From Bacilli bacterium (GTDB lineage Bacteria > Bacillota_I > Bacilli_A > RF39 > UBA660), in the NCBI GenBank assembly GCA_900769695.1, contig CAAGHO010000048.1:4698-68697 (forward strand): a stretch of DNA of 64,000 nt. The letters are read 5' to 3'. The number at the start of each line of letters is the position of its first letter. Positions within the stretch are counted from its first letter, which is position 1. Of the stretch, positions 58,620 through 59,850 are shown in pieces. The notes under the pieces are model-generated. The model ran no database searches. It saw only the letters and a program-made list of their open reading frames with translations, and was not told where the DNA came from. Both the position numbers and the translations under genes were made by a program.

Positions 58620-59165
58620 ATGAAAAAAAGTTTGAAAGTATCAATTATAATAGCAATAATAACTTGTATTATTTCGATAAGTGGATCATACGCTGCGACA
58701 AATTATGCGATAAGTGCTATAAAGATAGGATATTCAGATAATTCTAATTTAGGAGCAGATAATGTTCAAGCAGCAATCGATGGTACATGCAGTAAAGTTG
58801 ATACTAGGCTTGGTAATATCGAAAAAAGTAAACAGAATACTTTAACTACTACTACAGGTACTGTTAGTATAAATTTTAAAACACTTCATAGTGGTGATAA
58901 TTGTACAAAAGCATATAAATACGGAAATACAGTTATGTATAATTGTCCATTTGTTCCAGAAAGTGATATTTCTACTAATACATCTATATTAACTTTTCCT
59001 GATGGATATAGACCTATATCTCAAACTTATGTTGTAATTAGTGTTTCCGGTACTGGTTATTCCTACAATGCTGTTTTAAGTGCAACAGGTAATTTAAGCC
59101 TTGCCAATAATAATTTAAAATCAAATGTATGGTATCAATTATCAATTACTTTTATTTCTTCTTAA
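58620..59165 (+). CDS. Secreted protein, shorter paralogue of 49297..50271
   Basis: The signal peptide ends ...SGSYA/AT. IGYSDNSNLGADNVQAAIDG aligns with VGYSDNNDLGAVNVQDAIDK of the 49297 protein. The C-terminal part is unrelated and lacks the YWL...RP module. Confidence 0.55.
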   Translation: MKKSLKVSIIIAIITCIISISGSYAATNYAISAIKIGYSDNSNLGADNVQAAIDGTCSKVDTRLGNIEKSKQNTLTTTTGTVSINFKTLHSGDNCTKAYKYGNTVMYNCPFVPESDISTNTSILTFPDGYRPISQTYVVISVSGTGYSYNAVLSATGNLSLANNNLKSNVWYQLSITFISS

Positions 59166-59850
59166 GAAGCAAAATAAATTAAACAGTTGCAGAAAAATAT
59201 TTTTTAAAAACAATGACAATAAAGTTTATTATTTAAAATGTGATATTCGTAAATATTTTTCTAGTATTAACCATGAAATATTAATAGATTTATTAGAAGA
59301 AATAAGTTTTTTAAATGATGAAATGTGGATTATAAAAAAGTTGATAAAAGAACAACCAGATAATGCAAGTATTGGATTACCACTTGGAAATCAATCAAGT
59401 CAGTGGTTCGCACTTTTATATCTAAATAAAATAGATCATTATATTAAAGAACAATTAGGGATTAAATGCTATGTGAGATATATGGATGATATGATATTAG
59501 TTCATAGAGATAAAAAATATTTATCTGAATGTAAAAATAAAATAGAAAAAATATGTAATGATTTATTAGATTTAGAATTGAATGAAAAAACTCAAATAGG
59601 AATGGTAAAAAATGGAATAGATTTTTTAGGTTATAGACATATTTTAAGTAGTTCAGGTAAGATTATAGTTAAACTAAGATACTCTTCAAAAAGGCGTTTG
59701 AAAAAACATTTAAAAACTGTAAATAAATTATATAATAAGGGAATAGTTGATGATGAATATGTATATCAAAGAAAAAACTTTTTTTATAATCATATTAAAG
59801 ACACAAATGAGAGTACAAAACTTAAAGTTGACACATTTCCCTTCAAATAG
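59125..59850 (+). CDS. Reverse transcriptase of the diversity-generating-retroelement (DGR) type, apparently 5'-truncated
   Basis: YYLKCDIRKYFSSINHEIL is present, GLPLGNQSSQWFALLYLNKIDHY carries the DGR-type GxxxSQ signature, VRYMDDMILV is the YxDD catalytic box, and GIDFLGYR follows. The ~100 N-terminal residues (RT motif 1 region) are absent, and the ORF's first Met overlaps the preceding gene. Confidence 0.6.
   Translation: MYGINYQLLLFLLKKQNKLNSCRKIFFKNNDNKVYYLKCDIRKYFSSINHEILIDLLEEISFLNDEMWIIKKLIKEQPDNASIGLPLGNQSSQWFALLYLNKIDHYIKEQLGIKCYVRYMDDMILVHRDKKYLSECKNKIEKICNDLLDLELNEKTQIGMVKNGIDFLGYRHILSSSGKIIVKLRYSSKRRLKKHLKTVNKLYNKGIVDDEYVYQRKNFFYNHIKDTNESTKLKVDTFPFK

What the first reader, a model, noticed from the sequence alone, without database searches (positions are those of the whole stretch)
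59125..59850. DGR-type reverse transcriptase that appears 5'-truncated, with no avd or template repeat in the window
The ORF carries the GxxxSQ signature (LPLGNQSSQ) that separates DGR RTs from group II intron and retron RTs (QGxxxSP). It also has an intact YMDD box and a thumb-like C-terminus. The recognisable RT sequence only begins around KVYYLKCDIRKYF (RT motif 2). The ~100 residues normally upstream are missing. The only in-frame Met lies inside the 3' end of the preceding poly-G-controlled gene (58620..59165). I found no Avd-like small basic gene and no template-repeat-like sequence between 58532 and 59927 or after 63767. Two readings fit. It may be a decaying DGR whose 5' RT portion and TR were replaced when the poly-G cassette gene inserted. 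Alternatively, it may be an atypical short RT.
Basis: partly seen in the sequence, partly recalled or inferred. Interest (0 to 1): 0.7.

Follow-up and report, generated by a model that had tools for sequence, protein, structure and literature searches.

The report
Decayed DGR with truncated reverse transcriptase
This is the broken remnant of a diversity-generating retroelement (DGR): its reverse transcriptase (RT) has lost the first third, its template repeat (TR) and helper gene (avd) are gone, and the hypervariable stretch (VR) it once rewrote in the next gene is now frozen.

Summary
ORF 59125-59850 is the 3' two-thirds of a DGR RT. It matches Pfam RVT_1 only over profile positions 61-204 of 205 and Bordetella phage Brt only over residues 132-282. 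Homologues are about 340 aa, and homology to them starts at codon 122 (59191). The first ~27 codons of the ORF are not RT sequence. The 64-kb window holds no Avd, RT N-terminus or TR.

The next gene (59928-61865) carries the cognate VR at 60136-60219. Intact relatives are arranged avd-TR-RT-target. In 54 of 59 testable loci there is a TR/VR pair, and 678 of 761 mismatches fall on TR adenines.

The target is a cytoplasmic protein. Its N-terminal domain is DUF6273-like by sequence and its C-terminal half is a MoxR-type AAA+ ATPase. A 133-aa gene and a DUF2201 VWA/metallopeptidase gene follow.

The window VR is identical in six independent contigs that differ by SNPs elsewhere, so it is frozen. 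Intact relatives still diversify.

The poly-G gene is native to this position. It was not shown to have inserted into the DGR. Related lineages show at least six other, different RT lesions.

Verdict: an inactivated member of a known kind, in a moderately interesting family.

The parts
58537..58587 (+). Context, not part of the DGR. A terminator-like hairpin (58537-58562), a T-run, a G9 tract (58572-58580) and TTATAAT: a promoter-like cassette in front of the 181-aa gene.
   Evidence: One search finds this as the only terminator-like site in 58400-60100. Searches show the poly-G tract and a paralogous cassette at about 49213-49264. One search shows G9 in all nine assemblies that carry it.
58620..59165 (+). 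181-aa protein with an N-terminal hydrophobic, signal-peptide-like segment. It is native to this chromosomal position and its 3' end overlaps the annotated RT ORF.
   Evidence: One search gives the ORF. Searches show it in sister strains L046/L047/L049 that lack the RT block, at 99.7-99.9% identity. No family hit.
59191..59207 (+). Junction zone, AGAAAAATATTTTTTAA. These are the last 17 nt shared with RT-less sister strains and also the first 17 nt that align to full-length RT genes (13 of 17 identical to L001).
   Evidence: Homology to sister strains ends at 59207. blastn and tblastn homology to full-length RT begins at 59191, which is RT codon 122.
59208..59850 (+). Remnant of a DGR RT gene, equivalent to codons ~127-340. 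It keeps motifs 3-7 and the thumb and lacks motifs 1, 2 and 2a. The annotated ORF 59125-59850 adds ~27 unrelated N-terminal codons.
   Evidence: RVT_1 positions 61-204/205; alignment A1; tblastn residues 122-340; Brt residues 132-282; a full-length homologue matches Brt at E 1.8e-38.
59928..61865 (+). DGR target gene, 645 aa from the ATG (an upstream TTG at 59880 would give 661 aa). It has a DUF6273-like N-terminal domain holding the VR, a beta-rich middle domain and a C-terminal MoxR-type AAA+ ATPase.
   Evidence: Searches show conserved synteny directly downstream of the RT (66 of 80 loci). One search shows DUF6273 hits in homologues. Searches give the AlphaFold2 (AF2) model (pLDDT 85.8) and Foldseek matches to NorQ, 2r44 and MCM. 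Walker A GRSSEGKS and Walker B IIFFDE are read.
60136..60219 (+). VR of the DGR, codons ~70-97 of the target. The adenine-variable part is 60136-60194. An invariant GC-rich segment GGTGGGGCTCGCCCAG follows at 60195-60210. The VR-specific 3' end CTTTACCTT (IMH-like) is at 60211-60219, where TRs have ATTCACTTT.
   Evidence: 75% match to the L001 TR. (register with seven TR/VR pairs). (13 of 15 variable-part differences from the closest TR lie at TR adenines; P = 3e-5). (aa 72-92 hypervariable among near-identical proteins). (identical in six independent contigs).
61862..62263 (+). 133-aa protein of unknown function, the conserved third gene of the cassette.
   Evidence: Searches show the same position in all cassettes. 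Only sub-threshold AAA-like hits.
62273..63766 (+). DUF2201 protein: an N-terminal putative metallopeptidase (HEICH), a low-complexity linker and a C-terminal VWA-like domain (DTSGS MIDAS-like motif). It is the presumed partner of the ATPase.
   Evidence: PF13203 at 7.3e-33, PF09967 at 1.3e-12. Motifs read. Conserved synteny.

Best explanation
The ORF at 59125-59850 is a dead remnant of a DGR RT. The ancestral element had the order avd - TR - RT - target. The RT, with Avd, copied the TR transcript into cDNA with errors opposite adenines. That cDNA replaced the VR near the 5' end of the next gene. The next gene encodes a cytoplasmic protein with a DUF6273-like N-terminal domain and a MoxR-type AAA+ ATPase. 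It works with a 133-aa protein and a VWA/metallopeptidase (DUF2201) partner.

In the window's lineage a rearrangement with its breakpoint at 59191-59208 removed avd, the TR and RT codons 1 to about 121-126. It joined the rest to the 3' flank of a resident gene. What remains has the palm and thumb but no fingers motifs, no template and no Avd, so it cannot diversify anything. The VR at 60136-60219 is a fossil of the last retrohoming event and is now fixed.

Shown here: the truncation, the absence of TR and avd, the DGR nature of the family, the VR's identity and its invariance across contigs, and the native status of the upstream gene. Inferred: the order of events at the junction, and that the remnant is untranslated or functionless.
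For: Truncation. RVT_1 matches only profile positions 61-204/205. The ORF aligns to residues 122-340 of 340-aa homologues and to Brt residues 132-282.

DGR clade. A full-length homologue hits PDB 8ub7_A at E 1.8e-38. That chain is 100% identical to BPP-1 brt. Group II intron and retron RTs score about 1e-9. The nearest phage RT is phage nd12, at 44.6% identity. nd12 carries a DGR with an N-terminal DUF6273 target (PMC10743442).

Family behaviour. Of 80 species-representative loci, 73 have a full-length RT and 66 have the target gene directly downstream, nearly all with Avd upstream. Avd matches NF033474 at E 8.9e-8 over the whole profile. 54 of 59 testable loci have a TR/VR pair, and 678 of 761 mismatches lie at TR adenines (P about 1e-228).

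Window VR. It sits in register with these VRs. 13 of 15 variable-part differences from the closest TR are at TR adenines, and the VR-type 3' end is intact.

Nothing left upstream. There is no TR, Avd or RT N-terminus anywhere in the 64 kb.

Frozen versus active. The window VR is identical in six contigs from different samples that differ by up to 20-22 SNPs elsewhere. Intact L023 and L036 have 0/84 TR differences, 0/1020 RT differences and 2/732 flank differences, but 18/75 VR differences.

Real junction. It recurs on at least 10 contigs. Sister strains share the upstream gene up to 59207 and then differ.

Recurrent decay. Other lineages show different lesions. L004 retains RT from codon 132, L051 from codon 78, L053 from codon 86 and L086 from codon 116. 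L063 keeps only aa 168-255 and 316-337. L064 has a frameshift at codons ~120-127 and a partial TR.
Against: The remnant has no internal stop in 214 codons of AT-rich sequence. Its substitution pattern (5 synonymous, 4 non-synonymous lineage-specific changes; pairwise dN/dS 0.09-0.16) does not differ from intact relatives. Relaxed selection is therefore not demonstrated. The event may simply be recent, or the piece may be retained for another reason.

Only 64 kb of the genome was examined, so a second DGR acting in trans cannot be excluded from sequence. Assembly consensus would hide low-frequency VR variants.

The direction of the rearrangement is unresolved. The sister strains' IS30-like element begins exactly at the junction, and the 17-nt overlap could be either microhomology or RT-derived sequence.
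Confidence: 0.9

Rival explanations
1. The RT gene here is dead, but the VR is still diversified in trans by an intact DGR of the same family elsewhere in the genome. The locus would then be a satellite target rather than a fossil.
For: The VR keeps the invariant GC-rich segment and the VR-type 3' end shared by active relatives. Some MAGs hold several paralogous target loci (L024 and L027 from one bin; tandem copies in L024, L030 and L034). Many target cassettes have no adjacent RT at all. Remote TRs are known for MoxR-vWA-associated DGRs (PMC7159879).
Against: The VR is identical in all six independent contigs that cover it, although these strains differ by SNPs elsewhere. Intact relatives show 18/75 VR differences against almost no other change. 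No second RT or TR lies in the 64-kb window.
Confidence: 0.06
2. The remnant persists because it now serves the target operon, not because it is neutral debris. It could carry the operon's promoter or 5' leader, or it could let transcription from the upstream poly-G promoter read through into the target genes.
For: Most of the decayed loci keep the 3' part of the RT next to the target. That applies to the window, L004, L051, L053, L086, L063 (two short fragments with an internal deletion) and L064 (frameshifted). No terminator-like site lies between the 181-aa gene and the target gene. The remnant has no stop codons.
Against: Cassettes 91% identical to the window's target function without any RT sequence upstream (L008). 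Keeping the target-proximal end is what any upstream deletion would leave. Promoter-like matches in the region are no more frequent than in shuffled sequence (17 found, 15.4 expected). There are no expression data.
Confidence: 0.12
3. It is an atypical but functional short RT.
For: The frame is open, the YMDD box and the GxxxSQ motif are intact, and the thumb is present.
Against: The fingers motifs (1, 2, 2a) are absent. The N-terminal ~27 codons come from the out-of-frame 3' end and flank of another gene. All intact family members are about 340 aa. There is no template, no Avd and no VR turnover.
Confidence: 0.02
4. The junction is an assembly chimera.
For: Hypervariable and repeated regions often break metagenome assemblies.
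Against: The same junction and the exact ORF appear on at least 10 contigs from ENA, NCBI and Logan assemblies of different samples.
Confidence: 0.01

Closest known systems
Bordetella phage BPP-1 DGR (mtd-avd-TR-brt)
   Same: The RT clade is the same: a full-length homologue matches Brt at E 1.8e-38 and carries the [I/L]GxxxSQ motif. Relatives have an Avd helper. TR and VR differ at TR adenines. An invariant GC-rich segment is followed by a VR-specific 3' end.
   Different: Gene order in relatives is avd-TR-RT-target, with the target downstream of the RT. The VR lies near the N-terminus of a 645-aa cytoplasmic ATPase, not at the C-terminus of a phage tail protein. In the window the RT is truncated and avd and the TR are absent.
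Phage nd4/nd12 'tentaclin' DGRs (PMC10743442)
   Same: nd12 has the closest phage RT (44.6% identity). [quoted passage not shown]
   Different: Tentaclins are phage receptor-binding proteins with Ig-like domains. [quoted passage not shown]
DGR-diversified MoxR-vWA (VMAP) ternary conflict systems (Kaur et al. 2020, PMC7159879; PNAS 2024, PMC10907252)
   Same: A DGR-varied ligand-binding domain is coupled to a MoxR-like AAA+ ATPase and a VWA protein. The target is cytoplasmic. The PNAS paper also notes that transposons can degrade DGR parts and truncate DGR RT genes.
   Different: In those systems the variable FGS/CLec domain sits at the C-terminus of the vWA protein, and a VMAP effector is the third component, mostly in cyanobacteria and gammaproteobacteria. 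Here the variable domain is N-terminal on the ATPase itself. The VWA protein is a DUF2201 metallopeptidase fusion. The third gene is an unassigned 133-aa protein. The hosts are gut Bacilli and Clostridia MAGs.
NorQ/NorD and other MoxR-VWA chaperone pairs
   Same: The C-terminal half of the target model superposes on NorQ and the MoxR-family ATPase 2r44. A VWA partner is encoded in the same operon.
   Different: The hypervariable N-terminal domain and the metallopeptidase fused to the VWA domain are not features of NorQD. No substrate enzyme gene is linked.

Membership tests
DGR | RT belongs to the DGR RT clade (closest to Brt; [I/L/V]GxxxSQ in motif 4) | tested here: met
   A full-length homologue matches 8ub7_A, which is Brt of BPP-1, at E 1.8e-38. 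Group II intron and retron RTs score about 1e-9. The window ORF aligns to Brt 132-282 and carries LPLGNQSSQ.
DGR | Complete, potentially active RT (motifs 1-7 plus thumb) | tested here: not met
   RVT_1 matches profile positions 61-204/205 only. Residues 1-121 of homologues are absent. No N-terminal fragment exists elsewhere in the window.
DGR | TR paired with a VR, with mismatches at TR adenines | tested here: not met
   In the window the VR is present (60136-60219) but there is no TR in 64 kb. In relatives the feature is met: 54 of 59 loci have a pair, and 678 of 761 mismatches are at TR adenines.
DGR | Accessory gene avd | tested here: not met
   No tblastn hit in the window below E = 6. 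Relatives have Avd upstream of the TR (NF033474 at E 8.9e-8, PF22296 at 9e-6, both below curated cut-offs but covering the full profile).
DGR | VR 3' end with an IMH-type element distinct from the TR's | tested here: met
   The window has GGTGGGGCTCGCCCAG followed by CTTTACCTT, as in all VRs examined. TRs have ATTCACTTT at that position. The function of this element was not tested. The downstream hairpin is not stronger than in shuffled sequence.
DGR | VR lies in a CLec-type fold | tested here: inconclusive
   Homologues hit Pfam DUF6273 above threshold across the VR region (27.3 and 25.4 bits against a cut-off of 23.5). The window protein itself does not. DUF6273 is reported as CLec-like in PMC10743442. 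A very confident AF2 model of residues 1-265 (pLDDT 95.9) gave no significant Foldseek match in PDB or BFVD.
DGR | Ongoing diversification of the VR | tested here: not met
   The VR is identical in six independent contigs with SNPs elsewhere. Intact relatives L023 and L036 differ at 18/75 VR positions but at 0/1104 positions in the TR plus RT. Read-level data were not available.
MoxR-VWA ATPase systems | MoxR-type AAA+ ATPase | tested here: met
   Foldseek places the full-length model on NorQ (9qh4, 9qhd; TM-score normalised to the target 0.44-0.48), on 2r44 and on MCM AAA+ modules at E about 1e-7. The Pfam AAA_5 match is only sub-threshold. Sequence searches of PDB find nothing.
MoxR-VWA ATPase systems | Operonic VWA-domain partner | tested here: met
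   Gene 62273-63766 matches PF09967 (VWA-like, 1.3e-12) and PF13203 (metallopeptidase, 7.3e-33). Synteny is conserved.
VMAP ternary conflict systems (Kaur et al. 2020) | A VMAP third component and a variable FGS domain at the C-terminus of the vWA protein | tested here: inconclusive
   The third gene (133 aa) has no family hit. The variable domain is N-terminal on the ATPase, not on the vWA protein. No VMAP-specific profile was available to search.
Group II intron / retron / defence-associated RTs | Family-specific RT profile above cut-off, plus the associated intron RNA, msr-msd or defence partner | tested here: not met
   TIGR04416 scores 75-105 bits against a cut-off of 300. Drt3a scores 65-69 against 200. 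The retron St85 model scores about 50 against 235. The best PADLOC hit is the generic RT model, and the neighbouring genes have no PADLOC hit apart from one marginal MTase_II match (E 0.0085) for the 133-aa protein.

The most novel reading that the evidence does not exclude
The RT remnant marks one of many independent 'lock-ins' of a so far undescribed DGR-programmed intracellular sensor. In this reading, gut Bacilli and Clostridia use a dedicated DGR lineage to tune an N-terminal DUF6273-like domain on a MoxR-type ATPase, which signals through a VWA-metallopeptidase partner as a conflict or defence-type module. Lineages would repeatedly disable the mutator (RT truncation, frameshift, TR loss, even VR deletion) once a useful specificity is found. 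Here the operon would additionally fall under read-through from a poly-G, possibly phase-variable, promoter.
Probability: 0.15. Interest if true: 0.65.

Novelty: new member of a known kind. Interest (0 to 1): 0.35.

Why it matters
On its own the remnant is ordinary genome decay, and it should be annotated as a pseudogene rather than as a reverse transcriptase.

Its value is as a pointer. It led to a large, conserved DGR family whose target is a cytoplasmic MoxR-type ATPase with an N-terminal variable domain and a VWA-metallopeptidase partner. 66 of 80 species-representative loci have this arrangement. The architecture differs from the published DGR-MoxR-vWA systems, and it occurs in unicellular gut bacteria.

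The family also offers a natural series. It runs from active DGRs, through several kinds of inactivated ones with frozen VRs, to cassettes with no DGR at all. That series could be used to ask when hypermutation is kept and when it is switched off.

Tried and rejected
- dN/dS and lineage-specific substitution counts on the retained 204 codons. The window (5 synonymous, 4 non-synonymous) is indistinguishable from intact L009 (6 and 4), so this says nothing about relaxed selection.
- Fold assignment of the VR domain. The AF2 model of residues 1-265 is very confident, but Foldseek found nothing significant in PDB (best E 0.07) or BFVD (best E 0.11; a DUF6273 protein only at E 1.1).
- Sequence and profile searches of PDB with the target found no hits.
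- PADLOC scan of the target, the small protein and the DUF2201 protein gave no defence-family hit, apart from one marginal MTase_II match (E 0.0085) for the 133-aa protein.
- The hairpin downstream of the VR (60238-60257), as a cruciform-like retrohoming element, is not more stable than shuffles (z 0.25).
- An exact-pattern scan of genome contigs for the right end of the sister strains' IS30-like element, to polarise the rearrangement, gave no match.
- Poly-G length variation among nine assemblies: always G9. Phase variation is therefore neither supported nor excluded.
- Breakpoint hot spot. The window (codons ~122-127), L004 (codon 132) and the L064 frameshift (codons ~120-127) fall in one A/T-rich stretch. 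Other truncations lie at codons 66, 76, 78, 86 and 116, and the numbers are too small to claim a hot spot.
- Group II intron, retron and defence-RT memberships were considered and rejected on profile scores.
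Full report
**1. The observation**

The ORF 59125-59850 (+, 241 aa) is present as described and carries LPLGNQSSQ and RYMDDM. Pfam RVT_1 matches it only from profile position 61 to 204 of 205 (E 2e-16).

A search of 5.8 billion proteins found 1032 relatives. Nearly all complete ones are about 340 aa. 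In alignment A1 the window sequence becomes homologous only around ...NNDNKVYYLKCDIRKYF.

tblastn with the 340-aa homologue P0003 covers its residues 122-340, starting at window 59191. BLASTP to Bordetella phage Brt aligns ORF residues 34-194 with Brt 132-282 of 328.

The fingers part, RT motifs 1, 2 and 2a, is therefore missing. Motifs 3-7 and the thumb remain.

The only upstream in-frame ATG lies inside gene 58620-59165, and no Shine-Dalgarno-like sequence precedes it (sequence).

**2. It is a DGR RT**

The full-length homologue's best solved-structure match is 8ub7_A (E 1.8e-38). Group II intron and retron RTs score about 1e-9. That chain is 100% identical to brt of phage BPP-1. NCBIfam group II, retron and Drt models all score far below their cut-offs, and PADLOC gives only a generic RT model as best hit.

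The functional evidence is stronger still.

- In locus L001, which has a full-length RT 89% identical to the window's, an 84-nt repeat lies upstream of the RT (3739-3822) and again inside the next gene (5337-5420). The differences are almost all at adenines of the upstream copy.
- Seven such pairs gave 88 of 113 mismatches at TR adenines. They also show a constant 3' difference: the VR ends CTTTACCTT and the TR ends ATTCACTTT.
- In a census of the best 80 RT loci from species-representative genomes, 73 RTs are full length. 66 have the same target gene directly downstream, and nearly all have an Avd-like gene upstream.
- 54 of 59 testable loci have a TR/VR pair, and 678 of 761 mismatches lie at TR adenines although A makes up 33% of TR bases (P about 1e-228).
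- The upstream small gene matches the DGR Avd model over its whole length (NF033474 at E 8.9e-8, PF22296 at 9e-6). These scores are below the curated cut-offs, but they are essentially the only hits.

**3. What the window retains and lacks**

The whole 64-kb window has no Avd homologue, no RT N-terminal fragment and no TR. A relative's TR matches only the VR itself.

It is at 60136-60219, inside the gene that follows the RT remnant, in register with the VRs of relatives. Against the closest TR (L023), 13 of its 15 variable-part differences fall on TR adenines (P = 3e-5). It also keeps the VR-type 3' end.

**4. The target**

Gene 59928-61865 (645 aa) has no signal peptide. Homologues with other VR sequences hit Pfam DUF6273 above threshold across the VR region. 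The tentaclin paper reports DUF6273 as an N-terminal, CLec-like DGR target in phages nd4 and nd12 (PMC10743442). nd12 also has the closest phage RT, at 44.6% identity.

An AlphaFold2 model of the whole protein (pLDDT 85.8) places its C-terminal half with MoxR-type and MCM AAA+ ATPases (NorQ, 2r44). The Walker A and B motifs are intact (read).

A separate model of residues 1-265 is very confident (pLDDT 95.9) but has no significant Foldseek neighbour in PDB or BFVD. The lectin fold is therefore not confirmed here.

The next genes are a 133-aa protein with no family assignment and a DUF2201 protein. The latter has a metallopeptidase domain with HEICH and a VWA-like domain with DTSGS. The order RT-target-133aa-DUF2201 is conserved.

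**5. Frozen here, active elsewhere**

The exact remnant ORF occurs on at least 10 contigs and the exact target protein on at least 7, from different samples. Six contigs cover the VR. All are identical there, although L058 differs at 20 positions and one gap in 6.6 kb and L056 differs at 22 positions.

Two intact relatives, L023 and L036, show the opposite pattern. They have identical TRs (0/84) and RT genes (0/1020) and only 2/732 differences in the target flanks, but 18/75 differences in the VR.

Near-identical target proteins in the database likewise differ mainly in residues 72-92.

**6. How the truncation arose**

Sister strains (L046, L047, L049) are 99.7-99.9% identical to the window from 54116 up to 59207 and then diverge. 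The poly-G gene and 42 nt after it are therefore resident. This contradicts the idea that the gene inserted into a DGR.

Beyond 59207 the sister strains carry an IS30-like element, with an HTH_38 transposase that is apparently frameshifted, followed by another poly-G promoter cassette.

Homology to full-length RT genes begins at 59191. The 17 nt at 59191-59207 are thus shared by both partners, and 13 of the 17 are identical to L001.

I cannot tell which of three scenarios holds:

- microhomology-mediated joining;
- IS30 insertion into a window-like ancestor, followed by loss of the block in the sister strains;
- an IS-mediated exchange.

A pattern scan for longer sister-strain contigs found nothing.

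**7. Decay is recurrent in this family**

Different lesions occur next to the same cassette.

- L004-L006 retain RT from codon 132. The retained part has no synonymous difference from full-length L001, so this event is recent.
- L051/L052 retain RT from codon 78, with IS3-type transposase genes on both sides.
- L053/L054 retain RT from codon 86.
- L086 retains RT from codon 116, and L128 and L131 are also truncated.
- L063 keeps only fragments, aa 168-255 and 316-337.
- L064 has a frameshift at codons ~120-127, a 5'-truncated TR and no avd.
- L009 keeps avd, TR and RT but has lost the VR by an in-frame 32-codon deletion.
- Many cassettes have no RT at all, for example L008, whose target is 91% identical to the window's.

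**8. Is the remnant doing anything?**

It has no stop codon, but substitution counts do not separate it from intact genes. The only terminator-like site between 58400 and 60100 lies upstream of the poly-G tract. Read-through from that promoter into the target operon is therefore possible. This is inference only.

**9. Comparison with the literature**

DGR-diversified lectin-type domains in MoxR-vWA ternary conflict systems are described for cyanobacteria and gammaproteobacteria, with the variable domain at the C-terminus of the vWA protein (PMC7159879; PMC10907252). The latter paper also cites earlier work in which transposons truncated DGR RT genes.

N-terminal VRs are rare: 3 of 372 in Wu et al. 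(PMC5758913). I found no paper linking DUF2201 with retroelements.

**10. Verdict**

It is an inactivated DGR, a new member of a known kind. Interest is modest for the remnant itself. It is somewhat higher for the family it belongs to.

Noticed in passing
window 58537-58587 and 49213-49264; L047 4913-4955: A repeated cassette: a terminator-like hairpin (AATCAAGCAAGAAATTTTGCTTGATT), a T-run, G9 or G10, then TTATAAT. In the window each copy stands before a signal-peptide-like protein sharing GYSDNSNLGADNVQAAIDG (58620-59165 and 49285-50271). This looks like a small family of poly-G, possibly phase-variable, surface-protein genes. The G-run is 9 in all nine assemblies of the 58.5-kb copy.
   Followed up: partly
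L046 5090-6515; L047 3280-4900 (sister strains, equivalent to window 59208 onward): An IS30-like element (HTH_38 transposase on the minus strand, apparently frameshifted) begins exactly where the window's RT remnant begins. It replaces the remnant-RT/target/VWA block in these strains.
   Followed up: partly
L009 (= L067) 4840-6726: Avd, TR (100% identical to the L023 TR) and a full-length RT are intact, but the VR has been removed from the target gene by an in-frame 32-codon deletion (...GDNDAR|SSNGVRG...). This could be a failed retrohoming event or an assembly collapse of a hypervariable region.
   Followed up: partly
L051/L052 4012-10681: The truncated-RT/target/133aa/DUF2201 block is flanked on both sides by IS3-type (rve) transposase genes, in a composite-transposon-like arrangement.
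   Followed up: no
L064 1937-3222; L063 3590-3912: Further decay states. L064 has the RT split by a frameshift at codons ~120-127, in the same A/T-rich stretch as the window and L004 breakpoints, with a 5'-truncated TR and no avd. L063 keeps only two RT fragments, directly after holA.
   Followed up: partly
window 59928-60722 (target residues 1-265): The AF2 model is very confident (pLDDT 95.9, pTM 0.93) yet has no significant Foldseek neighbour in PDB or BFVD. The domain pair that holds the VR may be structurally uncharacterised.
   Followed up: yes
L024 6190-9881, L030 8016-11781, L034, L041, L042, L012 12290-13249: Tandem or nearby paralogous copies of the target ATPase gene occur in several MAGs, mostly without an adjacent RT.
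   Followed up: no
P0122-P0144; L063: More than 20 near-identical target proteins from different samples share one VR peptide (DAIVVSKSGDRSWFNVSKRSGGYRPALPY) while differing elsewhere. The one locus examined (L063) has a heavily degraded RT. This looks like a second frozen lineage.
   Followed up: partly
window 57787-57884 and 45849-45955: A 77% identical ~100-nt intergenic repeat that was not examined further.
   Followed up: no
L132, L134, L141-L144, L116, L122, L135: RTs of this family with the target gene downstream also occur in MAGs labelled Alphaproteobacteria, Proteobacteria or Muribaculaceae. This could be horizontal transfer or binning contamination.
   Followed up: no
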